Position numbers and translations under genes: made by a program | Notes under the pieces: model-generated | Databases searched by the model: none | Told to the model about the DNA's origin: nothing | Seen by the model: the letters and a program-made list of their open reading frames with translations, nothing else | Shown here: positions 7,881 through 53,031 of the stretch, piece after piece | Numbering within the stretch: position 1 is the first letter of the stretch | Layout of the letters: every line of letters begins with the position of its first letter | Assembly (NCBI GenBank): GCA_964508365.1 | Contig: CAZDTP010000003.1 | Span: forward strand, 27,559-91,558 | Source of the DNA: an uncultured archaeon | Lineage (GTDB): Archaea; Asgardarchaeota; Lokiarchaeia; Sigyniarchaeales; SOKP01 | Reading direction: 5' to 3' | DNA length: 64,000 bases

Positions 7881-8306
7881 CTAATAAAAAGGGAATCTAT
7901 TTCTTCTGTCTTTCTGAGAAGGTAACAATTTTTGGGAAATATCTTTATCTATTAGTCCTTCTATATGGCATAAATATTCGTATTCTTCTTTCAAAACTAA
8001 AGAAATTGCAATTCCATTTTTATTCATTCGAGATGTTCTGCCTATACGATGAACATAATTTTCTGGATAGTGTGGGATATCATAGTTAAAAACATGAGAT
8101 ATATTTTCTATGTCTAATCCTCTAGCAGCAACATCTGTAGCAATAAGCATATTAATCTTGTTTTTTTTGAAATTCTTTAAAACATTCTCCCTTTTATGTT
8201 GAGATAACTCTCCTGAAATTAATCCAATTTTATAAAATCTATTAAAGAAAGAATTGTTTAACATCTTGAACAACCATTTTCCTGTTTTTTTTGTATTCAC
8301 AAACAC
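7881..8306 (-). pseudogene. DEAD-box RNA helicase, C-terminal RecA2 domain only (N-terminal DEAD domain missing)
   Basis: FVNTKKTG...GELSQHKRENVLKNFKKNKINMLIATDVAARGLDIENISHVFNYDIPHYPENYVHRIGRTSR covers helicase motifs IV-VI. The helicase frame hits a stop 8 codons upstream of the GTG start, and no Q/I/II (DEAD) motifs exist upstream. Confidence 0.7.
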
Positions 8307-32915: not shown

Positions 32916-34034
32916 TTACTTCTTTAGGAAATGTCTATAAATTGTCACATAGTTTTTTACACTTACTACTCTAGGATTACGCCTAAAATTAGAAGGAATA
33001 AGAGCACTACAGCGTGAACAGAGTTTTGAAGTCTGCATCCAATCTTTAAATTCATCAGCGTGGGAAGGATACCTGCAGTTTGGACATACAACTACTCCTC
33101 GTCCTCTATCTTCCGGAAGTTTTGGTAATTTAAAACAAAAGATACACTTGAAATCCTCTAATGTTAAATATGATCCTTTTGGTTTAAATTTGTCAAAATT
33201 TTGGATTTTTGAAGTTGATTTAGTTCTAGTTATATGAGTTGCATTTGATGTTTTTTTTCTAGTGGTTTGCTTTTTTGACGTAGGAGTTATTCTTGATGAT
33301 TGAGTTCTAGATCTTGTTGTACGAGTAGTTGCTCTAGTAGAGGGTGTTGGATTAGTTACCCTTGTTGTCCTTACATTCTGTCTCTGTATTGTAGGTGTGG
33401 TTAAACTATTAATAGTTCTAGTACGATTTGCGATGTAATCACGAGTTAATGTAGGTAGTGATGAGCGTGTATTAGTAAATCCAAAAAGTATTACTATTAA
33501 AATCGTAGCAATTAATAGCAGCAAGAGATTTAAGTCTAATGGAAAACTTTCAATAGAACCATAGAAAGTTATCCAATAAGTTAGAATGAAAATAAGAACT
33601 GAGATTGATAACATGTACCCTAGCGTTCTCGCTTTTACTGCCTTTGTTCCAAAGTATATTACATTGTATTTCTTAAAACAACGATATAAAGAGTAAGAAC
33701 CATACAATATGTAAGGAAAAGCAAAAATTAGGCTCCATAAACTAAAATATACCCCTCCGAGAAGATTTTCACCCAATACACCTGTATAAAAACCCCATAT
33801 AGAATAAAAAATTCCCACACATAACGGAAGAATTACAAAAAATGCAGTATTTTGTGGTGAATTAAACTCACGATGACGTTTTATGTTTTCAAATATTTTT
33901 AAAGTGAATATTAACCATAACCCAATTAATAACCAAGTAACAAAATTAGAAAAAGAATAGGAGAGTAAACCATGGATTGCACCAATTATTAGAAAAATAG
34001 TACATATTATTGTTATAGTTTTATTTCTTGCCAT
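32916..34034 (-). CDS. six-TM membrane protein with Thr/Arg-rich linker and C-terminal RING-like zinc finger (candidate E3)
   Basis: There are about six hydrophobic helices in residues 1-190. A low-complexity T/R/S linker follows (TRVTNPTPSTRATTRTTRSRTQSSRITPTS...). Then comes CIFC-x16-CPNC-x4-H-x13-CSRC. It is the last gene of the Ubl-E1-E2-JAMM operon. Confidence 0.55.
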   Translation of the reverse strand: MARNKTITIICTIFLIIGAIHGLLSYSFSNFVTWLLIGLWLIFTLKIFENIKRHREFNSPQNTAFFVILPLCVGIFYSIWGFYTGVLGENLLGGVYFSLWSLIFAFPYILYGSYSLYRCFKKYNVIYFGTKAVKARTLGYMLSISVLIFILTYWITFYGSIESFPLDLNLLLLLIATILIVILFGFTNTRSSLPTLTRDYIANRTRTINSLTTPTIQRQNVRTTRVTNPTPSTRATTRTTRSRTQSSRITPTSKKQTTRKKTSNATHITRTKSTSKIQNFDKFKPKGSYLTLEDFKCIFCFKLPKLPEDRGRGVVVCPNCRYPSHADEFKDWMQTSKLCSRCSALIPSNFRRNPRVVSVKNYVTIYRHFLKK

Positions 34035-34066: not shown

Positions 34067-34873
34067 TTATTCATCATATTCTAAATATGCTGGTTTCCCT
34101 TCAATAATTGGATTCATGAATTCTAAAATTTCTGGTAACATTCTCACATCTAAATGGCCCTTAATATCAAAAGGTACCGAGTACCATTTTTTAGTTTTAA
34201 AATTTGCACGATAGATCTCAAAACCTACAGATTTTCCGTTAATTTGATAAGGATCAATTACTAAAGCTACTGATTTATCCCAAAATTGCTGATATCGCCT
34301 TTGAGTCCCTAAGTCTTCTCTAGACATGAAACATCCATATGAGGGATGAGAATGATACCATCCACAAATAAATTGCTTACTTTTTACAATATCTTCATAT
34401 GCTCGAGTAAAATTGTTATAATCTTTAATTTCAGCATAGACTGCAGTGCCGTGACCCATTGGATATGCATCTTCTAAATATAATATTCCATTGTCATAGC
34501 TTCCAGCGAGTAACCCAATCACCTCAACCCAGTTCTCTTTCCTAATTTTGGAATTCGCATATTTCAACGAATGACTTGAGATCTTTAGGATAGCTTTTAC
34601 AGTTATTTTTATCTTTGCAGAAATTTTATCACTTTTATCACCTTTAGCGATAGTTATTACAGGTTCCATTGGAATTGGTTCTAATTTGGTTTTTATACTT
34701 TCTGAATGGTTTAAAGATTTCGCATCAAAAATTTCAGCGGTTATTTCTTCCTGTAATTCTTCGAGTTGTAATTCGGTGTATACTTCCTCAAGTATTTCTT
34801 TTTTGATCTTTTCCTTTATTTTTTGTTTAATTGCATCTCTAATTTTTTCACCATTCTCATCGTTAATTTTCAT
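34067..34873 (-). CDS. JAMM/MPN+ metalloprotease (Rpn11/CSN5-like deubiquitinase candidate)
   Basis: EVIGLLAG supplies the conserved Glu, and GWYHSHPSYGCFMSREDL is HxH-x7-S-x2-D. It has a ~110-aa K/E-rich N-terminal extension. Confidence 0.85.
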   Translation of the reverse strand: MKINDENGEKIRDAIKQKIKEKIKKEILEEVYTELQLEELQEEITAEIFDAKSLNHSESIKTKLEPIPMEPVITIAKGDKSDKISAKIKITVKAILKISSHSLKYANSKIRKENWVEVIGLLAGSYDNGILYLEDAYPMGHGTAVYAEIKDYNNFTRAYEDIVKSKQFICGWYHSHPSYGCFMSREDLGTQRRYQQFWDKSVALVIDPYQINGKSVGFEIYRANFKTKKWYSVPFDIKGHLDVRMLPEILEFMNPIIEGKPAYLEYDE

Positions 34874-34877
34874 AAAA

Positions 34878-35405
34878 TCACCATTTATCCTTCGCGTATT
34901 TCTTTACCAAATTCCTAACTTTTTTTTCAAAATTTTTCTGATCTTTCATCATCTCAATAGCTGCCTTTTTGTTAAAAACATCAGTTGGATTAACATATTT
35001 TCCACGAGTGTTTAACATAGCAATTATTGCTTGAACAACTGTAACCGCTGTTTTTGAAGGACTCCATCCCCCTTTTTTGCCAGTTAGAGAAGGATCTACT
35101 AAAGCTAAGCAGATATTTCTTTGTCCTTTATATTCACTTGGCTTTGGCCAAAAGTTTGGATGCCATATCGGAGTATGCAATCTAACAAAAGGAGGCTGAT
35201 TTGGATATTGAACAGGAAACTTCATTTCTAATTTAAACAATCCTCCTGCATAAGCAGTGCCTTTAGGACCTTTAATCGTAACAGCTAAGTGATCGATGCT
35301 CTTTTTTTTTGGATTAAATGGCTTTAATTGGATAATTGTACCTTCCTTTAGCAACTTTTTTAGTCCCGCAAAATCTCGGGAAACTCGACTACTTCTTATA
35401 CTCAT
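34878..35405 (-). CDS. ubiquitin-conjugating enzyme (E2/UBC fold)
   Basis: GPKGTAYAGGLFKLEMKFPVQYPNQPPFVRLHTPIWHPNF...RNICLALV contains the UBC core with the HPN motif and catalytic Cys. The downstream GGWSPSKT...AIIAML matches the W-P helix region. Confidence 0.85.
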   Translation of the reverse strand: MSIRSSRVSRDFAGLKKLLKEGTIIQLKPFNPKKKSIDHLAVTIKGPKGTAYAGGLFKLEMKFPVQYPNQPPFVRLHTPIWHPNFWPKPSEYKGQRNICLALVDPSLTGKKGGWSPSKTAVTVVQAIIAMLNTRGKYVNPTDVFNKKAAIEMMKDQKNFEKKVRNLVKKYAKDKW

Positions 35406-35471: not shown

Positions 35472-36707
35472 TTATTTAAATTTTAAGGTTACATAAATCT
35501 CTCCACCTTTAAACCCCGCAACTGTGAGAAATTCGTAATTCCTCAAATCGTTTTGTACAAGAGTTTGGTCATTATCTAAAACGACAATATCATTAAAATC
35601 TAATAAAGTTAAAACCGGTTCAAATTCAGATTCCAATTCATATCCATTTCTTTCTAGTGTTTTAATTAAATTTGTACAAGGTGAAGTACTCTTCATTTTA
35701 ATGGAAACTCGTCTTACCTTTTTACCGCACTGAGAACATTCTGGATTTCTCTTCTTTTCAATGTGGTATAGTTTCATTGTCACAGCATTAAATATCACAT
35801 AACTTGTAATAGGCTGACCTAATCCTTTATGACCCCTTTTCCAATGAAGGATTTTAACCACCTCATGAGATTGTAATGCCGAAATAGTTGCGTTAATTGT
35901 AATTATCCCAGGATCGTGGCGATCAATAATTTTTACAATATCATCTTCGGTATATTCAGGTAAGAAATTGTGTTTTACAACAAGTTCATTTGCAACTTTT
36001 TGAATAAATCTAATATCTTCTACATTTTTAGGATTTGGATCTGTGTCAAATTTATCTTTAAAGGCCATATCTCCTTTAAAGACACAATGAATTCTTTTTC
36101 GAGGGATGCCAACCACCGTGCAAGCTGCCATTTCATCACTTTTGAGATCTGGCAATGGATTGCATTCATAACATGCATTTCGATATGGAAATATCGTATA
36201 TATGTGACCATAATAACCAGAAACCCCTCCATCTACTAAAGGTTTTCTGAATCTAATGCATTGAGCGTTTAAATTTAGCCTTGCGTTCATTGAATCAAGA
36301 CCTCCAATTACAACATCTGCATTATAATAGAGTGCAGGGTTTAATCTTTCTAAGGATGAATGATACCCTTTAACAATAATATTTGGATTAATTTCGACTA
36401 ATTTTCTTGCAGCTGCAATTGCTTTGGGTTCTCCTAACTTTGCGCCCACAAACAGAATTTGACGGTTCAGGTTAGAATGTTCAATTATGTCTAAATCGAC
36501 AAGATCTATATGACCTACCCCTAACATGGTTAAGTTTTTAGCAATTTCACATCCTAAACCTCCTACGCCAGCTATTAATACTCTCGACTTTTTTACTAAT
36601 TTCTGGGACCATCCTTCTAAACGAAATTGACGATCGTATAAGTCTCTCTCTTCTTCTGACATTCCCTTTGCAAAAAAATCTGAATTCTTACGCAATATTA
36701 TCACCAT
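35472..36707 (-). CDS. E1-like ubiquitin-activating adenylyltransferase (ThiF/MoeB/UBA family)
   Basis: YDRQFRLEGW...VLIAGVGGLGCEIAKNLTMLGVGHIDLVDLDIIEHSNLNRQILF is the adenylation-domain signature. There are two CxxC pairs (CYEC, CSQC), a candidate catalytic Cys in AACTVVG, and an extra ~85-aa C-terminal domain. Confidence 0.85.
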   Translation of the reverse strand: MVIILRKNSDFFAKGMSEEERDLYDRQFRLEGWSQKLVKKSRVLIAGVGGLGCEIAKNLTMLGVGHIDLVDLDIIEHSNLNRQILFVGAKLGEPKAIAAARKLVEINPNIIVKGYHSSLERLNPALYYNADVVIGGLDSMNARLNLNAQCIRFRKPLVDGGVSGYYGHIYTIFPYRNACYECNPLPDLKSDEMAACTVVGIPRKRIHCVFKGDMAFKDKFDTDPNPKNVEDIRFIQKVANELVVKHNFLPEYTEDDIVKIIDRHDPGIITINATISALQSHEVVKILHWKRGHKGLGQPITSYVIFNAVTMKLYHIEKKRNPECSQCGKKVRRVSIKMKSTSPCTNLIKTLERNGYELESEFEPVLTLLDFNDIVVLDNDQTLVQNDLRNYEFLTVAGFKGGEIYVTLKFK

Positions 36708-36710
36708 TAA

Positions 36711-36753
36711 TATTAATCAAAAAAATAAAAAAATTGAAGGGCTTTATGCCCTT
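36711..36753 (-). terminator. hairpin plus oligo-T tract between Ubl and E1 genes (candidate terminator/attenuator)
   Basis: On the minus strand: AAGGGC-ATAAA-GCCCTT (perfect 6-bp stem, 36737-36753), immediately followed by CAATTTTTTTATTTTTTTG. It ends about 10 nt before the E1 ATG. Confidence 0.35.
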
Positions 36754-36780: not shown

Positions 36781-37116
36781 TTATTTAAAAGTACCCGCTG
36801 TGCTTGCAGGGATTAAAAGTATATCGTCGCCATCATTAACATTATAGTCTTTTAACTGGCTACTCTCATCCATTGTTCTTCCACCAGAAGAAAGATGGAA
36901 CTCATCTGGATCAAGTCCGAATAGATTTCCTAATGTTTGTTTGATATCGCTTACGTTATTTGCGTCATTTACAGTTAACTTTTCCTTCTTTTCACCAGGA
37001 CCAATAGTTGACATGAAATATAAAGTCAACTTCTTACCTGTTGAGGGAACTTTGCTTGATGGGGTTTTAGATTTAACTGGTTCTAACTCCTCATCAAAAT
37101 CTTCATTATAACCCAT
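36781..37116 (-). CDS. ubiquitin-like beta-grasp protein precursor (Ubl-1)
   Basis: 111 aa: an acidic or disordered N-terminus, then a ~75-aa segment with Ub-like periodicity (KLTLYFMS...SDIKQTLGNLFGLDPDEFHLSSGGRTMDESSQLKDYNVNDGDDILLIPASTAG-TFK). It is the first gene of the E1/E2/JAMM operon. Confidence 0.7.
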   Translation of the reverse strand: MGYNEDFDEELEPVKSKTPSSKVPSTGKKLTLYFMSTIGPGEKKEKLTVNDANNVSDIKQTLGNLFGLDPDEFHLSSGGRTMDESSQLKDYNVNDGDDILLIPASTAGTFK

Positions 37117-37378
37117 TTTAATCGTTTCTCTTATTTTTTTTTTAAAGTTTTTTTTTTAAACTTAATAATATCAAGTTAAAATGATATTAAAAAACCCATT
37201 GGAATGATTTTGAAGTTTTTTGAATTTTTGTTTAAAATATAAGTATCTACATCAAAAAACCTAATATCATATATTTATAAATTAAATGAATGACTATCAA
37301 TATATATAAATAGGAAAATATCGTATTAGAGAGAAGATTTGATTATATAAATCAATTTATTCAACACGTTAAAATCAA

Positions 37379-38062
37379 TTGCTTATGAGCACTCCAGATA
37401 ACCTTCAATCTATTGTTTGTAATCTAATAAAGGAATATCTAAAAAAGAAACCTTTCTTTTCAATAGAAGATATTGTAATGTTCATCAGTAATAGGGTAAG
37501 AACTAACCCTAATTTGAACAAACGCAGCATTGAAATCATCATTAAAAATCTCATTAAAAGAAGAATTCTAATCCCTGGAACTAAATTAATGAAAAATAAT
37601 ATCATCGAGCATCCAATAAGAAATGAAATCTATAATTATATAAGAAAGAATCCTTCGAATGTTAATGATATAATGAAAGCAATTAATATTGGGAGTAATC
37701 AAGCGTTATGGCATTTATCTTGCTTAGAAAAATTTAGATTTACAAGATCAACAAAAATCGAGAATCAAAGAATAATTTTTGAATATGAATCAAATTCAGA
37801 TCTAGATGAGTTGTATTACTATTTAAAACAGGATATTGTACAAGATATTATCAACCTACTGAAAAAAGAAAACACCTCATTTAAAATTACGGAAATTGCT
37901 GCCAATTTAAAAAAAAATTACAATACTGTAAAAAAATATCTTGAAATATTAGGAACTCTGAAAATATTAAAAATTGAAAAAAATAAAAAAAGAGTTTTAT
38001 TCAGATTAGATCAAGAGAAATATGATAATATTAGGAAATCCATTATTGATGGTGAATTATAA
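37379..38062 (+). CDS. double winged-helix (ArsR/TrmB-like) transcriptional regulator
   Basis: There are two wHTH-like units (IRNEIYNYIRKNPSNVNDIMKAINIGSNQALWHLSCLEKFRF and ITEIAANLKKNYNTVKKYLEILGTLKILKIEK). It is divergent from Ubl-1. TTG start. Confidence 0.5.
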   Translation: MLMSTPDNLQSIVCNLIKEYLKKKPFFSIEDIVMFISNRVRTNPNLNKRSIEIIIKNLIKRRILIPGTKLMKNNIIEHPIRNEIYNYIRKNPSNVNDIMKAINIGSNQALWHLSCLEKFRFTRSTKIENQRIIFEYESNSDLDELYYYLKQDIVQDIINLLKKENTSFKITEIAANLKKNYNTVKKYLEILGTLKILKIEKNKKRVLFRLDQEKYDNIRKSIIDGEL

Positions 38063-38141
38063 AATTTACAAAGTTATTCCAATGGAATTTATATTTTGAA
38101 TTATATATTAGAAAATTAGATAATACTTTAATCAAAAAATC

Positions 38142-38930
38142 ATGAAGAAGAAATATAGAGTTTTAAATATCATAACTCTTTATGTTGTTTTCACTTTAAT
38201 TTATTTGATTTTTTTCATATTCCAAATAGAGAGTTTACCTTTATTTCTCTTTCTAACTATTGGGAGTGTTGCTGTATTATCTACCAGCACGATCTATACC
38301 GTTGTTAAATCTAAAAGCAGTCCAGCGAAGAGGATAAAAAAAGATAAATATTATCAAAAACCAAAATCAATCAAAAGAATATCGAGTGATTTGATTGAGG
38401 ATTACTTCGAAGCCATGCCATTAATAGATCAATACGCTGATACTGATGTATCTTTTGAAAATGTAGAATCAATCGATGATTATATCTTCACTTTTTTCAA
38501 ACAAGAGGAAGTAGATAAAATCGATTTGTTAGGGTTTTCAAAAATGGATAAAATCTTTTTTATCAGAGAGATGTTGTATTTTGATGCTGGTGAGAGAAAG
38601 CAGCTAATCGAAGATATTTTGAAAAATAAAGATATAACTGATGAACAGATAAAATACTACCCGCCTTTAAACATAATTGGATTGAATGATAAATTACGCG
38701 TTTACATAAGGTCATTAGTCGAACCTGGTGAGAAGACCAAAATACTCATAATTGAAACCTCCGAATTAATAAGTATAATCAAAGAACAAGTTGGAATTCT
38801 ATTTGATTATGGTTTAGAAGATTTTTCCCTATCCACAGGAGGTTTAATATTAGATGAAACTAAGCAGATAAAGGACTATTTTATTGACGAGGATGACGAA
38901 ATTGCTTTAATTCCATCAAAAAAAAAATAG
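38142..38930 (+). CDS. two-TM membrane protein with C-terminal ubiquitin-like domain lacking a conjugatable terminus
   Basis: The N-terminus has a hydrophobic hairpin (VLNIITLYVVFTLIYLIFFIF / LPLFLFLTIGSVAVLSTSTIYTVV). The C-terminal 80 aa align by eye with Ubl-1/2 (EPGEKTK..., LSTGGLILDETKQIKDY, DDEIALIPSKKK) but end in KKK rather than AG/GG. Confidence 0.6.
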   Translation: MKKKYRVLNIITLYVVFTLIYLIFFIFQIESLPLFLFLTIGSVAVLSTSTIYTVVKSKSSPAKRIKKDKYYQKPKSIKRISSDLIEDYFEAMPLIDQYADTDVSFENVESIDDYIFTFFKQEEVDKIDLLGFSKMDKIFFIREMLYFDAGERKQLIEDILKNKDITDEQIKYYPPLNIIGLNDKLRVYIRSLVEPGEKTKILIIETSELISIIKEQVGILFDYGLEDFSLSTGGLILDETKQIKDYFIDEDDEIALIPSKKK

Positions 38931-38949
38931 AATTATTTTTTTTATAGTT

Positions 38950-39369
38950 TTATATCCTTTCAATATAACAACCAGCAACACTCGCTGGAATTAATAAAAT
39001 GTCATCTCCATCATCTACATTGTAATCACTCAGCGTAGATTCTTCATCCATGGTAACTCCTCCAGAAGACAAATAAAAATCAGATGGATCTAAAGCAAAT
39101 AAATTCGCTATAGTATCTTTAATATCTCTTACCATATTACCCGTGAAGACGGTAAGCTTTTGTTTTTTCTCCCCTGGTCCTATAGTGGATAAAAAAAAAA
39201 CTGAAATCTTTTTTCCTTCAGAAGAGATTGTGGGTTCTGGAGTTTTAGATCTAATATCTTCTGTTTGGTCCTTTTTAGACTGATCATCAATATCTTTATC
39301 CAAGCTTTCATCAATTTCCTCATCGAATTCTTCATCGAACTCCTCTTCAAATTCATCGTCAAAATCCAT
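38950..39369 (-). CDS. ubiquitin-like beta-grasp protein precursor (Ubl-2), paralog of Ubl-1
   Basis: 139 aa with a strongly acidic repeat N-terminus (DFDDEFEEEFDEEFDEEIDE). The Ubl core is closely similar to Ubl-1 (STIGPGEKK.KLTV, LSSGG.TMDE, GDDILLIPASVAG-CYIERI). Confidence 0.7.
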   Translation of the reverse strand: MDFDDEFEEEFDEEFDEEIDESLDKDIDDQSKKDQTEDIRSKTPEPTISSEGKKISVFFLSTIGPGEKKQKLTVFTGNMVRDIKDTIANLFALDPSDFYLSSGGVTMDEESTLSDYNVDDGDDILLIPASVAGCYIERI

Positions 39370-39548: not shown

Positions 39549-40652
39549 ATGAAGGATAAACCTATTCCTAAGTATCAAATTCGAGAAAAAACACCCGAAG
39601 AGCAACTAGACACCATTCCTAAAACAAAATTACTTAAAAAAATTAAGGAAGAAAGAATTAAATTAAATAGAGAAAAAACTGAATGGGAGAGCGTTATTAG
39701 CAAAGTTGAAGGTTATCAAGATAATATTCAAGATTTAGAAAAAAAAAGAAAAGAAAAAGAACTTCAAGTCAGAGACCTTCAAAATCAACACGAAAAACTA
39801 AAAAACGATCTAGACAATATGAGAAATGAATTAAAAGAAAGTAAAAATAATCTATATGAGAAAGAAAGGGAGTTAGATCAAAAAAATGCTGACTTAGAGC
39901 GATATCAAGAGAGATTAGATGGACTAAGAGATGAATTAGAGAGTGAGAAGAAAGACTTAGAAAGAGAAAAAGAAAAAGCAAAAGAAAGAATTAAAGAAAT
40001 TAAAACCAAATTACCCGGAATGGAACGGAGAGAGAGTGCCTTAGAGAGAACAATTGAAAAGTTGGAAAACAATTTAATGGATTTAAGAAACGAAGGTAAG
40101 AGTTTAACGAGAGAAAGAGATAATTTAAACAATGAAATCAATAGTTTGAGAAGAGAGATAGTAGATGAAAAAAATCGAATTGATGATGAGAAAAGAAGAT
40201 TAAAAGATGAAAAAGAAAAGGTTCGCTATAAGAAAAAAGACTTAAGTCTCAAAGCTCGTGATATTGAAAAAAAAAAAGAGCAATTGGGAAAATTTAAAGA
40301 GGATGTAGATCACGATGTAAAAGACTTAGAAAGAAAGAAAAAAGGGCAAGAAGTAAGATTAAAGGAATTAGATAGGAAGGTACCTAAGGCAGAAGATACT
40401 TATTTTTCATTAGAACATAAAATTGGTAACTTAGAAAATAAACTGAAAAGCTTAAAAGATGAAATAAAAAAACTGGAAAAGGAAAAATCGAAAATAGAAG
40501 ACGATAAATTTTCAATTAGAAAGGAGAGGCAAAGATTAGAAAGTGATAAAGAGAGATTTCTTAAAGAAAAAAGAGATTTTGAAAGAGAATTGAAAAAAAC
40601 AAAAGAAATCCCAAAATATAAAATCAAATCAAAAACGCCTTCGAGATATTAA
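39549..40652 (+). CDS. long K/E-rich coiled-coil protein with matching N- and C-terminal IPKY.I..KTP motifs
   Basis: 367 aa, almost entirely heptad-like charged sequence (EKERELDQKNADLERYQERLDGLRDELESEKKDLEREKEKAKE...). The termini carry PIPKYQIREKTP and EIPKYKIKSKTP. Confidence 0.6.
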   Translation: MKDKPIPKYQIREKTPEEQLDTIPKTKLLKKIKEERIKLNREKTEWESVISKVEGYQDNIQDLEKKRKEKELQVRDLQNQHEKLKNDLDNMRNELKESKNNLYEKERELDQKNADLERYQERLDGLRDELESEKKDLEREKEKAKERIKEIKTKLPGMERRESALERTIEKLENNLMDLRNEGKSLTRERDNLNNEINSLRREIVDEKNRIDDEKRRLKDEKEKVRYKKKDLSLKARDIEKKKEQLGKFKEDVDHDVKDLERKKKGQEVRLKELDRKVPKAEDTYFSLEHKIGNLENKLKSLKDEIKKLEKEKSKIEDDKFSIRKERQRLESDKERFLKEKRDFERELKKTKEIPKYKIKSKTPSRY

Positions 40653-40672: not shown

Positions 40673-41710
40673 ATGAAAATTCCAAAAGGAATTGAAGGGG
40701 ATTACCTTGAAACAAAAGAAAACAACCTTTTTTTCGATATAAAAGGTTATCACCATCCCCGAGACCGTAGAATTTGTTTTTTAAGATTTTATCCAGATCA
40801 AAATGGGGAAAGAATAAAAGAAGGCAAAAAATTTAATAAAATCTATTCTTTAGATGAAAGATATTTGAAATTAAGAGAGGAATACCCACAGTATCTTTTT
40901 TTTTCAAATGAACTTGATTTAGAGCTTCAGGGCGTAGAAATTAAAGATATAAAGAAAATTTATACGCCCCGAGAATACTATGATGCATTAAAAATGAGGA
41001 ATAATTTGTCAGAAATCGAAATCCATTCCAAAAATTTGTGTGAGTTATTTATTACAGGCGGTTCCATACCAGAAGATGCAATCGGTATTTCTGGTTCCCC
41101 CATGATCGGATTAAGTAAAGATGATTCTGATATAGATGTAATAATATATGGAACTCGTGCTAGTTTAGAGTTTCAAGATAAATTAAAAACAATACTGCTT
41201 ACTTCAAACAATTGTAGGGCGTATAACTTAAGCGAATATAAAACTCATTATAATTGGAGGGTAGGAGGTTCTGGCATTAGTTTCGAGAATTTTTTGAGAA
41301 GTGAAAAAAGAAAGTTACATCAAGGAAAATTCTATGGAATTGATTTCTTTATACGATATATTAAAAGCCCTAATGATTGGAATGGAACTTTCTACGATTA
41401 CAAATTCAAGAACTTAGGAAGGATTGAAATAAAAGCAAAAATTGTAGATTCAACCGATTCCATTTTTACTCCCTGCTCTTATAAAATTAATGGTATAGAA
41501 ATCGTAGATAAAAAATTTATTAGAAATGATATAAATTTAAAAGATATTACTGAAATCAACTCATTTCGCGGTAGATTTTGTGAACACGCTAAAGATGGAG
41601 AAACTGTGTTAGTTAAAGGAAAACTAGAAGAAGTAGTTTTCAAAAATAACAAAAAATATCTAAGAATTCTACTTACGGATCAAAAACAAGATATTTTTTG
41701 CGTAATATAG
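40673..41710 (+). CDS. predicted Pol-beta-superfamily nucleotidyltransferase (COG1665-like) with OB-like C-terminus
   Basis: GISGSPMIGLSKDDSDIDVIIYG fits the NTase motif hG[GS]-x9-13-DhD. The C-terminal region resembles the OB part of TiaS-related proteins. This call is by eye only. Confidence 0.45.
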   Translation: MKIPKGIEGDYLETKENNLFFDIKGYHHPRDRRICFLRFYPDQNGERIKEGKKFNKIYSLDERYLKLREEYPQYLFFSNELDLELQGVEIKDIKKIYTPREYYDALKMRNNLSEIEIHSKNLCELFITGGSIPEDAIGISGSPMIGLSKDDSDIDVIIYGTRASLEFQDKLKTILLTSNNCRAYNLSEYKTHYNWRVGGSGISFENFLRSEKRKLHQGKFYGIDFFIRYIKSPNDWNGTFYDYKFKNLGRIEIKAKIVDSTDSIFTPCSYKINGIEIVDKKFIRNDINLKDITEINSFRGRFCEHAKDGETVLVKGKLEEVVFKNNKKYLRILLTDQKQDIFCVI

Positions 41711-44739: not shown

Positions 44740-45882
44740 ATGAACAACGATGAATTTGATCTAAGCGAAATTGTAAAATCTAGAGAATCTGTTAGAACTA
44801 GGTTTAATGAGATAGCGCGTCAGAATGTTAAATCAAATAACGTGTCAAATCTAGATAACGACACTTATCTAGCGGATCTGCTAAAAGTTATAAAAATTAA
44901 GTCTTTAGTTATTGGAGTCGGTGGAGCTGGGAATAACACCGTATCGAGAATGCACGATATTGACTCTGATTACATCGACTCGCTCACTATTAATACGGAT
45001 GCTCACGATTTATATTACTCAAATTCTAGCCAGAAACTTTTAATCGGAAAAGAGATTTGCAACGGATTAGGGTCTGGTAATGATCCCAGCATCGGTAGTG
45101 CGGCTGCTGAAGAAGATGTAGATCGCCTTTCTCAAGTGTTAAACGCTGATGTAGTTTTCCTTACTTTTGGCTTGGGTGGTGGTACTGGTACTGGTGCAGC
45201 TCCTATTATTGCTAGGGAAGCCAAAAAAAATAATGCCACAGTTGTATCGTTTTGTTCAGTACCTTTTAAATCTGAAGGAGTGGAACGAAATTTAAGAGCA
45301 AGAAAAGGTCTAGAGGAACTTATGAAATATTCTGATACATTAATCCCTATACCAAATGATAATCTTCTCCGATTTAACCAAAAATTACCTATTCTAGCAG
45401 GTTTTAAGATTATGGATGAGGTTTTAATCAGGTGTATTAAAGAAATAATTAATCTAATAAATAACTGTGGTTTGATTAATATTGATTACGCAGATGTTAG
45501 AAAAGTTTTAGAAAAAAAGGGAAATTACCCTTCTGGGCTAATTGGTATTACAGAATCGTTAGGTGAAGAAAGAGATTTAATAAGAAAGTCTAAACTAGCA
45601 TTACATAATCCTCTTTTAGAACCGGACATAAAAAAAGTTGATAAATGCATAGTTTCTGTTTCTGGTGATCATCAATTATCGTTATCTAATATTGATAGGA
45701 TTATTTCAACAATTTCAAGTGAAATCCCCGAGGATGCATCTCTTAAATTCGGAACTTCATTAAATCCAACCCTAGGATCGAAAATTAGGATTATGGCGTT
45801 AGGGCGAGGCCCAATCTCGCCATATGTTCAAGCGGCAATAGATGGGACTGAATTTCCACACACTCACATAAGCCAGCTGTAA
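44740..45882 (+). CDS. ftsZ: cell-division GTPase FtsZ (tubulin/FtsZ family)
   Basis: VIGVGGAGNNTVSRM, the tubulin signature GLGGGTGTGAAPIIA and the T7 loop NIDYADV are present. It has a ~50-aa N-terminal extension. Confidence 0.9.
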   Translation: MNNDEFDLSEIVKSRESVRTRFNEIARQNVKSNNVSNLDNDTYLADLLKVIKIKSLVIGVGGAGNNTVSRMHDIDSDYIDSLTINTDAHDLYYSNSSQKLLIGKEICNGLGSGNDPSIGSAAAEEDVDRLSQVLNADVVFLTFGLGGGTGTGAAPIIAREAKKNNATVVSFCSVPFKSEGVERNLRARKGLEELMKYSDTLIPIPNDNLLRFNQKLPILAGFKIMDEVLIRCIKEIINLINNCGLINIDYADVRKVLEKKGNYPSGLIGITESLGEERDLIRKSKLALHNPLLEPDIKKVDKCIVSVSGDHQLSLSNIDRIISTISSEIPEDASLKFGTSLNPTLGSKIRIMALGRGPISPYVQAAIDGTEFPHTHISQL

Positions 45883-46002
45883 AAAATTTTTATGTAAAAC
45901 GGGTATTTAATAATCAAACTACATCATTCATTAAACTTTTTTTTAAAAAAATCTTATAACTAATAACAATTGCGATTAGGTGAATCTATCATCGGAAATA
46001 AA

Positions 46003-52257: not shown

Positions 52258-53031
52258 TTAATCGAAAATCTTTTTATAACACTCGCAACAAGGAATTCCA
52301 AGACTAATTTTATTGGAGTAATCAACTCTTATTTCCTCAATATTATTAACTAATCTGATTAGGCTCTCTTTAAATTTCAATACTTCGGGATCCAAAATAT
52401 TTTTATATATATTTTTTAATCCAACATTGTTATGAATTCTCTTTTTGCAAATGGGGCATCGATCAAAGAAATTTTTTAACCTTATCAATTGCTCGTCTTC
52501 TTTATTAATAGTTAAACGAAAGTGAGATAAAGTGTGTCCTGGATGTAGTGTTATAATTAATTTCTTAAATATTTCCTCTAAATTTTCTTCTAGACTTAAT
52601 AGCGAGGTGTGTTCGATATATACGAGGTCTTCCTCAGCTATCAAGTTATTAATCGCTTCTTCTGATACTTCCCTATTTGCTAAATTGGCTTTGATCCCAA
52701 TTAAAATAATTGGAATATCATTCACATTCTCCTTAAAAAGAGTTATCCACCTATTTAAGTCGGAGAAAGTTTCTTTATTAGATATGTTAAAGCATAACAA
52801 TCCTGTACAGGCACCTCGACAGAATACAGGAAAAAGAAACCTAAATCTTTTGCTATCTTTCAAATCCCAAATAATAAACTTATAGTTATCTTCCTCATTA
52901 ACTTGACATTCCACAGATTTAAACGAAACACCAATCGGGCTTCCGTTATTTCCATTATTATCAATAACGGTATTTTTACCCGAGTTAAATGATCCTCCTA
53001 AAACCAATTTTAACTTATAAGATTTGGGCAT
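52258..53031 (-). CDS. Rab/Ras-like small-GTPase-fold protein with degenerate G motifs and C-terminal zinc ribbon
   Basis: It aligns by eye with Rab along the whole G domain: KLVLGGSFNSGKNT / IIWDLKDSKRFRFL / ILIGIKANL versus GDSGVGKS / WDTAGQERF / NKxD. The G1 Ser/Thr, G3 Gly and G4 NKxD are all substituted. The C-terminus has CPICKK...CCEC. Confidence 0.65.
   Translation of the reverse strand: MPKSYKLKLVLGGSFNSGKNTVIDNNGNNGSPIGVSFKSVECQVNEEDNYKFIIWDLKDSKRFRFLFPVFCRGACTGLLCFNISNKETFSDLNRWITLFKENVNDIPIILIGIKANLANREVSEEAINNLIAEEDLVYIEHTSLLSLEENLEEIFKKLIITLHPGHTLSHFRLTINKEDEQLIRLKNFFDRCPICKKRIHNNVGLKNIYKNILDPEVLKFKESLIRLVNNIEEIRVDYSNKISLGIPCCECYKKIFD

What the first reader, a model, noticed from the sequence alone, without database searches (positions are those of the whole stretch)
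36781..39369. Two paralogous Ubl precursors end in AG plus a tail (not GG) and carry acidic N-terminal extensions
Seen in sequence: Ubl-1 ends ...GDDILLIPASTAG-TFK. Ubl-2 ends ...GDDILLIPASVAG-CYIERI. Their cores share long identical blocks (STIGPGEKK, LSSGG, DILLIPAS). If ILLIPAS.AG corresponds to ubiquitin's LVLRLRGG, the mature C-terminus would be Ala-Gly, exposed only after removal of a 3- or 6-residue tail. The operon's JAMM protease is the plausible processing enzyme. Both proteins also have 35-65 residue N-terminal extensions that ubiquitin lacks, and Ubl-2's is a striking acidic repeat (DFDDEFEEEFDEEFDEEIDE). Established: eukaryotic Ub and Ubls are made as precursors with C-terminal tails, and the Caldiarchaeum Rpn11 homolog processes its pro-Ub. 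Inference: there are two differently tailed modifiers, possibly differentially regulated or targeted.
Basis: partly seen in the sequence, partly recalled or inferred. Interest (0 to 1): 0.7.

Follow-up and report, generated by a model that had tools for sequence, protein, structure and literature searches.

The report
Loki archaeal ubiquitin-like modifiers ending Ala-Gly
Two small ubiquitin-fold proteins of a Lokiarchaeon belong to a large Asgard family that always ends in Ala-Gly, not ubiquitin's Gly-Gly; the short tails after it are evolutionary accidents, while the N-terminal arms carry a conserved motif shared with a neighbouring protein.

Summary
Ubl-1 (36781..37116, -) ends LLIPASTAG-TFK. 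Ubl-2 (38950..39369, -) ends LLIPASVAG-CYIERI. They are 63% identical. Ubl-1 models as a beta-grasp whose best solved match is Caldiarchaeum ubiquitin, and AG falls on ubiquitin G75-G76 without gaps.

Ala-Gly marks the whole family: 138/138 orthologues in species-representative genomes and 39/39 divergent family domains end AG, and none ends GG.

The tails are not a conserved feature. Most orthologues stop directly after AG (Ubl-1 44/68, Ubl-2 45/57). The CYIERI tail comes from a single TGA-to-TGT change that reads into the 3' UTR. TFK differs from the neighbours' YF by a 1-nt indel. The Rpn11-like JAMM is kept in 30 of the 32 clusters with no tail, so trimming is at most a side job. "Two differently tailed, differentially regulated modifiers" is therefore not supported.

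New points:
- A third beta-grasp domain without a terminal Gly sits on a membrane protein between the two genes.
- Tandem poly-Ubl genes exist elsewhere.
- The acidic arms carry a motif, Phi-[KR]-x-K-T-P, also found at both ends of the adjacent coiled-coil protein.

Verdict: a real, new variant of the known archaeal E1/E2/RING/Rpn11 ubiquitin system.

The parts
36781..37116 (-). Ubl-1, 111 aa. Disordered acidic arm (residues 1-28, 37033..37116), beta-grasp core ending Ala107-Gly108 (36793..37032), tail TFK plus stop (36781..36792).
   Evidence: ORF. Pfam PF00240 at 32.7 bits. AF2 beta-grasp model, with pLDDT below 50 for residues 1-24 and 109-111. Foldseek top hit is Caldiarchaeum ubiquitin. 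Coordinates checked.
37060..37077 (-). Motif VKSKTP (Ubl-1 residues 14-19), an instance of Phi-[KR]-x-K-T-P.
   Evidence: Present in 80/81 Ubl-1-like orthologues. K17, T18 and P19 are at least 90% conserved in alignment A1.
38950..39369 (-). Ubl-2, 139 aa. Strongly acidic arm (residues 1-53, 39211..39369), core ending Ala132-Gly133 (38971..39210), tail CYIERI plus stop (38950..38970).
   Evidence: ORF. 63% identical to Ubl-1. Pfam PF00240 at 25.2 bits. The arm is conserved in orthologues. Coordinates checked.
38968..38970 (-). TGT (Cys134) codon. It is TGA (stop) in sister contigs, and this single base creates the CYIERI tail.
   Evidence: L001/L004 read GCT GGT TGA TAT ATT GGA AGG ATA TAA, while the window and L003 read GCT GGT TGT TAT ATT GAA AGG ATA TAA.
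39238..39255 (-). Motif IRSKTP (Ubl-2 residues 39-44).
   Evidence: 54/57 Ubl-2 orthologues carry K[TSI]P in the arm.
38142..38930 (+). Membrane protein, 262 aa. It has two N-terminal helices and a helical domain. A third, non-conjugatable Ubl domain (residues 184-258, 38691..38915) ends ...ALIPSKKK with no terminal Gly.
   Evidence: 37% identical to Ubl-1. AF2 beta-grasp at 184-258 with pLDDT 77-91. Foldseek matches ISG15, ubiquitin and CsUb at E about 1e-6, rmsd 1.1-1.4 A. 60 orthologues were found and none of the C-terminal endings listed has a terminal Gly.
37379..38062 (+). Protein with two winged-helix (ArsR/HrcA-like) domains, a possible regulator of the cluster.
   Evidence: Pfam HTH_5 at 5e-6 and HrcA_DNA-bdg at 3.5e-5. 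Found at this position in 63/80 loci.
35472..36707 (-). E1-like activating enzyme, 411 aa.
   Evidence: Pfam ThiF at 2.7e-56. Nearest solved relatives are SAE2/UBA2, UBA1 and UBA3. GxGxxGxE, Cys195 in AACTVVG and two CxxC motifs are conserved in 65 sequences.
34878..35405 (-). E2 conjugating enzyme, 175 aa.
   Evidence: Pfam UQ_con at 7.8e-27. Nearest solved relatives are eukaryotic E2s. HPN 82-84 and Cys99 are invariant.
34067..34873 (-). Rpn11-like JAMM metalloprotease, 268 aa, with an N-terminal charged helical extension.
   Evidence: Pfam JAB at 8.7e-14. Nearest solved structure is CsRpn11 6fjv at 4e-16, then Rpn11 and CSN5. E116, H174xH176, S185 and D188 are conserved.
32916..34034 (-). 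Multi-pass membrane protein with a C-terminal Cys/His zinc domain, a candidate RING-like E3.
   Evidence: Only weak Pfam RING and Zn-ribbon hits, E 0.03-0.3. C297, C300, C317, C320, H325, W332, C339 and C342 are conserved in 57 sequences. Last gene of the operon in 56/80 loci.
39549..40652 (+). Coiled-coil protein, 367 aa, transcribed divergently from Ubl-2. It carries the same motif at both ends: IREKTP (39579..39596) and IKSKTP (40623..40640).
   Evidence: The motif is at the N-terminus in 54/56 and at the C-terminus in 52/56 orthologues, and occurs 0 times in 204,110 aa of other ORFs from the same loci.
36737..36753 (-). GC-rich hairpin AAGGGC-ATAAA-GCCCTT followed by a T-run, between Ubl-1 and E1. 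It looks like a terminator or attenuator.
   Evidence: A perfect 6-bp stem plus T-run is found in 48/64 orthologous intergenic regions, with a few compensatory variants.

Best explanation
Ubl-1 and Ubl-2 are conjugatable ubiquitin-type modifiers. They belong to a large Asgard family, mostly Promethearchaeota/Loki, whose invariant C-terminus is Ala-Gly.

Most likely mechanism:
1. The terminal Gly carboxylate is adenylated and thioesterified by the operon's E1.
2. It is passed to the E2.
3. It is then ligated to lysines, probably with the help of the membrane-anchored RING-like protein.
4. The Rpn11-like JAMM reverses the linkage.

The residues after AG are not functional pro-peptides. They are short, unselected translations of AT-rich 3' non-coding DNA that appear whenever the stop codon is lost or shifted. 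They are tolerated because the JAMM, or another peptidase, trims them. The same activity is needed for the tandem poly-Ubl genes found in other members.

The two paralogues differ in their disordered acidic N-terminal arms. Each arm carries a conserved Phi-[KR]-x-K-T-P motif. The neighbouring coiled-coil protein has this motif at both ends. I take it to be a recognition element of the system, either an acceptor-lysine consensus or a docking site.

Shown here: fold, register, conservation, origin of the tails, gene context, intact catalytic motifs.
Inferred: activation, conjugation, trimming by JAMM, role of the motif.
For: - Fold and register: AF2 beta-grasp, with Foldseek top hits Caldiarchaeum ubiquitin and then ubiquitin, ISG15 and Hub1. 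Ungapped HMMER register puts AG on G75-G76.
- AG is the mature end and is under selection. It is found in 138/138 sequences from species-representative genomes and in 39/39 full domains among 50%-identity cluster representatives, with 0 GG. The stop codon follows directly in 44/68 Ubl-1, 45/57 Ubl-2 and 10/13 solo paralogues, and in 107/120 Ubl-2 clusters.
- Tails are accidental: TGA to TGT; a 1-nt indel turning YF* into TFK* within conserved DNA; more than 20 different tails of 1-9 aa rich in K, N, I, Y, F and L.
- A processing activity must exist. P0241 and P0242 are head-to-tail tri- and di-Ubl proteins joined directly after AG, and P0241 was seen in two independent assemblies.
- Enzymes: E1, E2, JAMM and TM-RING follow Ubl-1 in at least 56 of 80 loci. 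The same is seen in divergent lineages. Catalytic motifs are intact. The nearest solved JAMM is CsRpn11, which cleaves pro-ubiquitin and conjugates (PMC6043591, PMC5654768).
- Motif.
Against: - No biochemistry. Neither activation of an Ala-Gly end by this E1 nor cleavage after Ala-Gly by this JAMM has been shown.
- In known structures the Gly-Gly tail lies in narrow grooves of E1 and JAMM enzymes, so a penultimate Ala needs an adapted pocket. I could not examine this because no complex prediction was available.
- The RING assignment is weak (Pfam E about 0.3).
- Ubl-2 falls 0.2 bits below the Pfam cut-off.
- The synteny evidence comes from fairly close relatives (at least 74% identical Ubl-1). 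It partly reflects shared ancestry rather than selection.
- The role of the motif is pure inference.
Confidence: 0.7

Rival explanations
1. One reading: the two different tails are functional pro-peptides that keep each modifier inactive until cleaved, giving two separately regulated or targeted modifiers.
For: Both window proteins do carry tails. An uncleaved tail blocks E1 activation in Caldiarchaeum (PMC5654768). Eukaryotic Ubls are made as precursors (my own knowledge).
Against: Tails are absent in most orthologues and have no conserved length or sequence. Strains carrying an identical Ubl-1 gene have a tail-less Ubl-2 that differs at the stop codon by one base. The Ubl-1 tail changes reading frame between close relatives.
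Confidence: 0.05
2. The tails are not removed. Tail-bearing alleles such as this window's Ubl-2 are crippled or inactive copies, tolerated because other paralogues (Ubl-1, solo copies) cover the function. JAMM then acts only as an isopeptidase.
For: The CYIERI tail is a recent stop-loss. Several paralogues per genome exist: 13 solo copies, and a second copy in the window's own MAG (L040). JAMM is retained without any tails to process.
Against: About a third of species representatives carry a tail on Ubl-1, the operon copy. 86/120 close Ubl-1 clusters have one, which is too common for null alleles. Poly-Ubl genes require cleavage after AG. CsRpn11 cleaves both linear and isopeptide bonds (PMC6043591).
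Confidence: 0.17
3. The proteins are not protein modifiers. They would be sulfur carriers of the ThiS/MoaD/SAMP kind, or non-covalent ubiquitin-domain adaptors.
For: The E1 belongs to the ThiF/MoeB superfamily. The neighbouring TM-Ubl3 shows that non-conjugatable Ubl domains exist in this cluster.
Against: No ThiS or MoaD family match; the best match is ubiquitin. A eukaryote-type E2 with HPN and a catalytic Cys, a catalytic-Cys E1 and an Rpn11-like JAMM are encoded in the same operon. An invariant free terminal Gly is selected. No sulfurtransferase or cofactor-synthesis gene lies inside the conserved block.
Confidence: 0.05
4. Sub-hypothesis rival: the Phi-[KR]-x-K-T-P motif is not an acceptor-lysine consensus. 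It would instead be a docking peptide for a shared partner, or a proline-directed phosphorylation site (K-T-P).
For: The Thr-Pro pair is as conserved as the Lys. The motif lies in regions predicted disordered. No acidic residue follows, unlike the SUMO consensus.
Against: Nothing discriminates between the two readings with the present data. The motif's restriction to the Ubl arms and the coiled-coil protein's termini fits either one.
Confidence: 0.5

Closest known systems
Caldiarchaeum subterraneum ubiquitin operon (Ub, E1, E2, small RING finger protein, CsRpn11)
   Same: Eukaryote-type E1, E2 and an Rpn11-like JAMM are encoded next to a ubiquitin-fold modifier. The modifier can carry a C-terminal extension that the JAMM removes. 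CsUb is the best structural match of Ubl-1 and CsRpn11 is the closest solved JAMM (PMC5654768, PMC6043591).
   Different: CsUb ends Gly-Gly plus a 9-aa pro-peptide and has no long N-terminal arm. Here the end is an invariant Ala-Gly and tails are sporadic. The arm is acidic and carries a motif, the candidate E3 is a multi-pass membrane protein, and there are several Ubl paralogues plus a membrane-bound Ubl domain.
Other Asgard ubiquitin cascades (Helarchaeia Ub/E1/E2/RING acting on UEV-Vps23; Heimdall and Odin ubiquitin binding ESCRT-I)
   Same: Asgard archaea and the same enzyme classes. Helarchaeial ubiquitin is also a short-tailed precursor, GG-SPKN (bioRxiv 10.1101/2023.07.25.550441; PMC9192718).
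   Different: Those modifiers end Gly-Gly and are linked to ESCRT genes. No ESCRT or UEV gene lies in this window. By alignment the Ile44 position is an invariant Ser here.
SUMO / Smt3
   Same: A disordered N-terminal arm precedes the beta-grasp. In Smt3 and SUMO-2/3 that arm carries consensus lysines used for chain formation, and a short C-terminal tail is trimmed before use (my own knowledge). The E1's best solved match is the SUMO E1 subunit UBA2.
   Different: The Pfam Rad60-SLD score is below its cut-off (18.5 vs 23.8 bits). The end is AG, not GG. The E1 is encoded by a single gene. The motif is Phi-K-x-K-T-P, not psi-K-x-E.
UFM1 and ATG8/ATG12 (modifiers whose penultimate residue is not Gly)
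   Same: The mature end is X-Gly (UFM1 is Val-Gly with a 2-aa tail removed by UfSP). This shows that only the last Gly is chemically required (my own knowledge).
   Different: Those use non-canonical E1s (UBA5, ATG7) and belong to other sequence families. Here the sequence family is ubiquitin (PF00240) and the E1 is closest to canonical UBA1, UBA2 and UBA3.
Eukaryotic polyubiquitin genes
   Same: Related family members P0241 (3 units) and P0242 (2 units) are head-to-tail repeats ending in a 2-aa tail (VL, IY). They must be cut after each terminal Gly.
   Different: Each unit keeps its own roughly 40-aa acidic arm, so the units are not seamless. The window itself has single-unit genes.
Bacterial Bil/Bub ubiquitin-like proteins
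   Same: Prokaryotic E1/E2/JAMM operons whose Ubls have diverse N-terminal tails, coiled coils or domains in front of a C-terminal beta-grasp (PMC11601603). Here too the family includes Zn-ribbon/coiled-coil-Ubl, vWA-like-Ubl and ATPase-like-Ubl fusions that end in AG.
   Different: Different sequence families and a bacterial, partly antiphage, context. Here the setting is a chromosomal housekeeping neighbourhood in Asgard archaea.

Membership tests
Ubiquitin family (Pfam PF00240), conjugatable type | Beta-grasp fold with ubiquitin topology | tested here: met
   AF2 model shows strands 29-36, 43-50, 73-77 and 98-103 with helix 55-66 and core pLDDT about 90. Foldseek hits to CsUb, ubiquitin and ISG15 have probability 1.00.
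Ubiquitin family (Pfam PF00240), conjugatable type | Sequence score at or above Pfam's gathering cut-off (25.4 bits) | tested here: met
   Ubl-1 scores 32.7 bits. Ubl-2 scores 25.2 bits, just under the cut-off, but is 63% identical to Ubl-1.
Ubiquitin family (Pfam PF00240), conjugatable type | C-terminal Gly-Gly | tested here: not met
   Ala-Gly in both proteins. 138/138 orthologues and 39/39 divergent domains end AG and none ends GG. The terminal Gly itself is present.
Ubiquitin family (Pfam PF00240), conjugatable type | Leu8-Ile44-Val70 hydrophobic patch used by most ubiquitin receptors | tested here: not met
   In the HMMER register (offset 32), Ile44 corresponds to Ser76, which is invariant in alignment A1. 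Val70 corresponds to Ile102.
Ubiquitin family (Pfam PF00240), conjugatable type | Covalent attachment to lysines through E1 and E2 | not testable with these tools
   Only the genes and their catalytic motifs could be checked.
Archaeal eukaryote-like ubiquitin operon (Caldiarchaeum/Asgard type) | Ub-like gene clustered with E1, E2 and an Rpn11-like JAMM | tested here: met
Archaeal eukaryote-like ubiquitin operon (Caldiarchaeum/Asgard type) | RING-type E3 in the cluster | tested here: inconclusive
   Pfam RING and Zn-ribbon hits reach only E 0.03-0.3. A conserved C-x2-C...C-x2-C-x4-H...W...C-x2-C pattern is present in 57 orthologues. No structure was predicted.
Archaeal eukaryote-like ubiquitin operon (Caldiarchaeum/Asgard type) | Modifier made as a precursor that needs JAMM cleavage | tested here: inconclusive
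   True for the two window genes and for the poly-Ubl genes, but most orthologues are made ready-ended. Cleavage itself was not testable.
SUMO (Rad60-SLD, PF11976) | Pfam score at or above the cut-off (23.8 bits) | tested here: not met
   18.5 bits for Ubl-1 and no hit for Ubl-2.
SUMO (Rad60-SLD, PF11976) | Disordered N-terminal arm with a lysine-containing consensus | tested here: inconclusive
   The arm is predicted disordered and a conserved K-containing motif is present. The motif is not psi-K-x-E and its role is unknown.
Sulfur-carrier Ubls (ThiS/MoaD/SAMP) | ThiS/MoaD family match, a Gly-Gly end, and an E1 without an E2 | tested here: not met
   No ThiS or MoaD hit for either Ubl. The end is AG. 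An E2 is present.

The most novel reading that the evidence does not exclude
The AG-ending Ubls define a separate conjugation system of Loki-type Asgard archaea. The Ala-Gly end and a Ser at the Ile44 position would keep it orthogonal to Gly-Gly pathways. In this reading it works like SUMO: the E2/E3 recognises a short consensus, Phi-[KR]-x-K-T-P, and modifies its lysine. The modifiers carry that consensus in their own N-terminal arms, allowing chain formation. The cluster-encoded coiled-coil protein carries it at both ends and would be a dedicated substrate, perhaps cross-linked into a membrane-associated scaffold together with the membrane RING protein and the membrane-bound Ubl domain.
Probability: 0.2. 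Interest if true: 0.8.

Novelty: new variant of a known kind. Interest (0 to 1): 0.55.

Why it matters
Asgard ubiquitin systems are used to argue that eukaryotic ubiquitin signalling predates eukaryotes. The operon-linked ubiquitin-family modifier in this window, whose relatives turned up in many Loki-lineage MAGs, differs from ubiquitin at two places that tools and receptors rely on: the Gly-Gly end and the Ile44 patch.

This has practical consequences.
- Di-Gly remnant proteomics would miss its conjugates. The tryptic remnant of Ubl-1 would be the 19-residue DYNVNDGDDILLIPASTAG.
- Gly-Gly-based probes and ubiquitin-binding-domain assays may fail.

It also offers simple, testable questions in an organism group that now has cultured members:
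- What does a penultimate Ala do for E1 and JAMM specificity?
- What reads the K-T-P motif?

Finally, the finding is a caution. A C-terminal tail on a Ubl is not by itself evidence of regulated precursor processing.

Tried and rejected
- Tails as conserved pro-peptides: rejected by comparison.
- Terminator-like hairpins that overlap the last codons of both genes (36794..36810 and 38972..38988). The codons for Pro-Ala (CCN GCN) and Ala-Gly (GCN GGN) are complementary by nature. Relatives break the variable pair without compensation, for example CCA GCA...GCG GGA and CCT GCT...GCT GGT. I treat this as a by-product of the peptide motif, not an RNA element.
- SUMO membership: Pfam score below the cut-off.
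- Sulfur-carrier reading: no family match, and an E2 is present.
- The sigma-70 promoter scan is not meaningful for an archaeon and was ignored.
- NCBIfam gave nothing useful for the Ubls, TM-Ubl3, TM-RING or the 345-aa protein.
- No tRNA or Rfam family in the window.
- Four literature searches and five papers read gave no description of an Ala-Gly-ending Asgard Ubl, of the K-T-P motif or of the membrane Ubl protein. This shows only absence from the held library.
- PDB entries 8HM1-3, which looked like possible Asgard ubiquitins, are Bacteroides fragilis BfUbb.
- The rest of the window was scanned for further ubiquitin, ESCRT or proteasome genes and none was found.
- I could not test E1 or JAMM pocket adaptation to Ala because no complex prediction was available.

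Full report
**What is there.** The interval 36781..39369 lies in a low-GC (about 30%) chromosomal region. An identical Ubl-1 gene and the same gene order occur in MAG GCA_019894885.1 (Promethearchaeota bin41) and in several metagenome contigs.

On the minus strand, five genes run in this order:

| Gene | Coordinates |
|---|---|
| Ubl-1 | 36781..37116 |
| ThiF-type E1 | 35472..36707 |
| UQ_con E2 | 34878..35405 |
| JAB/MPN protease (JAMM) | 34067..34873 |
| Multi-pass membrane protein with a C-terminal Cys/His zinc domain | 32916..34034 |

Upstream, on the plus strand, lie a double winged-helix protein (37379..38062) and a 262-aa membrane protein (38142..38930). Ubl-2 follows on the minus strand (38950..39369). 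A 367-aa coiled-coil protein (39549..40652, +) is transcribed divergently from Ubl-2.

**Checking the observation.**
- Ubl-1 ends LLIPASTAG-TFK and Ubl-2 ends LLIPASVAG-CYIERI.
- The two are 63% identical over 102 residues.
- Both hit Pfam ubiquitin, at 32.7 and 25.2 bits against a 25.4-bit cut-off.
- An AlphaFold2 model of Ubl-1, built on 58 homologues, gives the ubiquitin beta-grasp with core pLDDT about 90. Residues 1-24 and the tail 109-111 fall below 50.
- Foldseek against the PDB ranks Caldiarchaeum subterraneum ubiquitin first (6fno_D, E = 1e-7), followed by ubiquitin, ISG15 and Hub1.
- HMMER aligns residues 46-100 to ubiquitin 14-68 without gaps. So strand 5 (98-103) matches ubiquitin strand 5, and A107-G108 fall on G75-G76.
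- In the same register the tail PASTAG replaces LRLRGG. Position 72 is Ala, as in NEDD8 (my own knowledge), and Ile44 is replaced by Ser76, which is invariant in the family.

**Ala-Gly is a family hallmark.**
- Close homologues number in the hundreds: 800 and 861 proteins at E <= 1e-3.
- In the 120 best Ubl-1 clusters...IP[AS]S[TS]AG is conserved and conservation stops at the Gly.
- I searched 1.84 billion cluster representatives and re-aligned the best 150 locally. All 39 full-length family domains, down to about 40% identity, end in AG (IPHSTAG, IPVSTAG, IPSSTAG, IPSSRAG, IPASHAG, IPISLAG). The eukaryote-type polyubiquitin hits end in GG.
- In one-genome-per-species archaeal and bacterial genomes, 222 stretches encode relatives. 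Of the best 80, 79 are labelled archaeal, mostly Promethearchaeota; L008 carries a bacterial label and looks mis-binned. All 138 Ubl genes found in them end AG.
- A GCN-to-GGN change is a single base, so the Ala is under strong selection.

**The tails are accidents.**
- In the species-representative set the stop codon follows AG directly in 44/68 Ubl-1, 45/57 Ubl-2 and 10/13 extra solo paralogues. Among Ubl-2 clusters, 107/120 are tail-less.
- The tails that exist are 1-9 residues long, differ from each other, and are rich in the residues encoded by AT-rich DNA.
- For Ubl-2 the origin is visible. Sister contigs whose Ubl-1 is identical read GCT GGT TGA TAT ATT GGA AGG ATA TAA. The window reads GCT GGT TGT TAT ATT GAA AGG ATA TAA. 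One base turns the stop into Cys and the ribosome runs to the next in-frame stop.
- For Ubl-1 the DNA after AG is a conserved non-coding element. Relatives read GGA TAC TTT TAA (YF) or GGA TAA. The window reads GGT ACT TTT AAA TAA (TFK), a 1-nt indel away.
- So the tails do not distinguish two modifiers and are not regulatory pro-peptides.
- Their frequent occurrence does suggest they are harmless, which in turn suggests they are trimmed. In Caldiarchaeum an uncleaved tail blocks E1 activation (PMC5654768).
- Independent support for cleavage after AG comes from P0241 and P0242. These are three- and two-unit head-to-tail Ubl proteins whose junctions lie directly after AG. P0241 was found in two unrelated assemblies.

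**The enzymes.**
- The JAMM's nearest solved relative is CsRpn11 (E = 4e-16), then eukaryotic Rpn11 and CSN5. CsRpn11 cleaves both the pro-peptide and conjugates (PMC6043591).
- Its Glu116, His174-x-His176, Ser185 and Asp188 are conserved in 56 sequences.
- The E1's nearest solved relatives are UBA2, UBA1 and UBA3. It keeps the nucleotide-binding motif, two CxxC pairs and a Cys in an invariant AACTVVG segment.
- The E2 keeps HPN and the catalytic Cys.
- The membrane protein's C-terminal domain keeps seven Cys/His and a Trp, but matches RING models only weakly. I call it a candidate E3.
- JAMM is present in 30 of the 32 complete clusters in which neither Ubl has a tail; in the other two it was not found within the DNA held. 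Its conserved job is therefore more likely deconjugation.

**Context is strongly conserved.**
- The block 345-aa protein / coiled-coil / Ubl-2 / TM-Ubl3 / wHTH / Ubl-1 / E1 / E2 / JAMM / TM-RING recurs in at least 54 of the 80 loci. These are fairly close relatives, so part of this is shared ancestry.
- More divergent AG-type Ubls also sit directly upstream of E1 (-E2-JAB). One locus has two AG-Ubl genes in tandem.

**A third Ubl domain.** The C-terminal 75 residues of the membrane protein 38142..38930 are 37% identical to Ubl-1. They model as a beta-grasp with pLDDT 77-91 and match ISG15, ubiquitin and CsUb at 1.1-1.4 A. The protein ends ...ALIPSKKK, and none of the orthologue endings listed has a terminal Gly. 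It is a non-conjugatable, membrane-anchored ubiquitin-like domain. I suggest, by inference only, that it recruits some component of the system to the membrane, where the candidate E3 also sits.

**The N-terminal arms.** They are real and conserved, not mis-called starts.
- The acidic sequence is conserved in orthologues and is also present as the linker inside the poly-Ubl proteins.
- Besides the acidic/aromatic head, both arms contain Phi-[KR]-x-K-T-P: VKSKTP in Ubl-1 and IRSKTP in Ubl-2. The motif is present in 80/81 Ubl-1-like and, in relaxed form, 54/57 Ubl-2-like proteins. It is also present in 24 of 38 divergent domain instances.
- In the window's roughly 18,600 residues of ORFs, the strict pattern occurs only four times. 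Two are in the Ubls and two are at the ends of the adjacent coiled-coil protein: IREKTP at residue 11 and IKSKTP at residue 359 of 367.
- Across the 80 loci it occurs in 54/56 N-termini and 52/56 C-termini of that protein, and never in 204,110 residues of other ORFs.
- This points to a shared reader. By analogy with SUMO and Smt3, whose N-terminal arms carry the consensus lysines used for chains (my own knowledge), it could be an acceptor-site consensus. A docking or Thr-Pro phosphorylation role is equally open.

**Comparison with the known.** Asgard and Caldiarchaeum ubiquitin cascades, short pro-peptides and Rpn11 processing are established (PMC5654768, PMC6043591, PMC9192718, bioRxiv 10.1101/2023.07.25.550441). 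All those modifiers end Gly-Gly. Bacterial Bil and Bub Ubls show that N-terminal additions to a conjugatable beta-grasp are common in prokaryotes (PMC11601603). I found no paper in the held library that describes an Ala-Gly-ending Asgard family, the motif or the membrane Ubl protein. That is a limited search.

**Verdict.** This is a new variant of a known kind of system.
- Well supported: the fold, the AG hallmark and the accidental nature of the tails.
- Inferred: conjugation, trimming by JAMM and the motif's role.

Noticed in passing
window 38142..38930 (+): A membrane protein whose C-terminal domain is a third paralogue of the Ubls (37% identical, predicted beta-grasp). It ends ...ALIPSKKK, and none of the orthologue C-terminal endings listed has a terminal Gly. 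It is a membrane-anchored, non-conjugatable ubiquitin-like domain sitting between the two modifier genes.
   Followed up: yes
window 39549..40652 (+), motifs at 39579..39596 and 40623..40640: The coiled-coil protein next to Ubl-2 carries the same Phi-[KR]-x-K-T-P motif as the Ubl arms at both of its ends (KPIPKYQIREKTPEE and EIPKYKIKSKTPSRY). This is conserved in more than 50 orthologues and absent from all other ORFs of the loci. Weaker internal copies exist (IKTKLP, LDRKVP).
   Followed up: partly
window 36737..36753 (- strand), between Ubl-1 and E1: A GC-rich hairpin AAGGGC-N5-GCCCTT followed by a long T-run, inside an otherwise conserved 70-90 nt intergenic element. A perfect 6-bp stem plus T-run recurs in 48/64 orthologous spacers, with a few compensatory variants. 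It could attenuate read-through, so that the modifier is made in excess over its enzymes.
   Followed up: partly
window 36794..36810 and 38972..38988 (- strand): The last codons of both Ubl genes form terminator-like hairpins. Pro-Ala (CCN GCN) and Ala-Gly (GCN GGN) codons are inherently complementary. Relatives do not compensate at the variable pair, so this looks like a by-product of the peptide motif.
   Followed up: partly
L087 59..1177 and L088 59..1177 (protein P0241); protein P0242: Tandem poly-Ubl genes of the same family, with three and two units. Each unit has its own acidic arm and K-T-P motif. Junctions lie directly after AG and the last unit ends with a 2-aa tail. This is an archaeal counterpart of polyubiquitin genes. 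The contigs are too short to show context.
   Followed up: partly
L091 8001..8825 (protein P0250), compared with window 45882..45970: In a related MAG, a fourth Ubl gene (Zn-ribbon-like CxxC domain, coiled coil, K-T-P motifs, Ubl ending AG) sits between the PNPOx-like gene and FtsZ. In the window those two genes are only 88 nt apart and the gene is absent.
   Followed up: no
proteins P0245, P0264, P0282, P0296, P0249-P0258: Many family members are long proteins with the AG-ending Ubl at the extreme C-terminus. The N-terminal parts look, by eye from sequence, like a vWA-type domain, a P-loop ATPase, a roadblock-type domain or a Zn-ribbon plus coiled coil. No domain search was run on them. Whole proteins might be conjugated through their Ubl end.
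   Followed up: no
L089 8001..8890: A divergent lineage has two different AG-type Ubl genes in tandem (IPHSTAG with the K-T-P motif; IPVSTAG-LL without it), directly upstream of E1-E2-JAB.
   Followed up: no
L008 (contig DATKTW010000176.1); proteins P0122, P0392: A contig carrying this Loki cluster at 95-99% protein identity is labelled 'Candidatus Nanopelagicaceae bacterium' in its public record. This is most likely a mis-binned contig.
   Followed up: no
L040 (JAGXNP010000209.1) and 12 other loci (L029, L035, L047, L051, L052, L061, L071, L072, L074, L078, L084, L085): Extra solo Ubl-1-like paralogues (74-93% identical, mostly tail-less) lie outside the cluster. One is in the same MAG as the window, so genomes hold at least three conjugatable copies.
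   Followed up: partly
window 40673..41710 (+): A conserved 345-aa neighbour of the cluster has no family match. It contains a G-S...D-x-D stretch (GISGSPMIGLSKDDSDIDVIIYG) that resembles Pol-beta-type nucleotidyltransferases.
   Followed up: no
window 7881..8306 (-): A 141-aa ORF consisting only of a helicase C-terminal domain (Pfam Helicase_C, 5e-26) with no room upstream for the N-terminal half. It may be a truncated or split gene. The surrounding 4-8 kb has the lowest GC of the window (0.23-0.25).
   Followed up: no
window 52258..53031 (-) and 44740..45882 (+): A Ras-family small GTPase and an FtsZ/tubulin-family gene lie in the same window. The rest is housekeeping: TBP, FeoB, alanyl-tRNA synthetase, and pterin and F420-related synthesis genes.
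   Followed up: no
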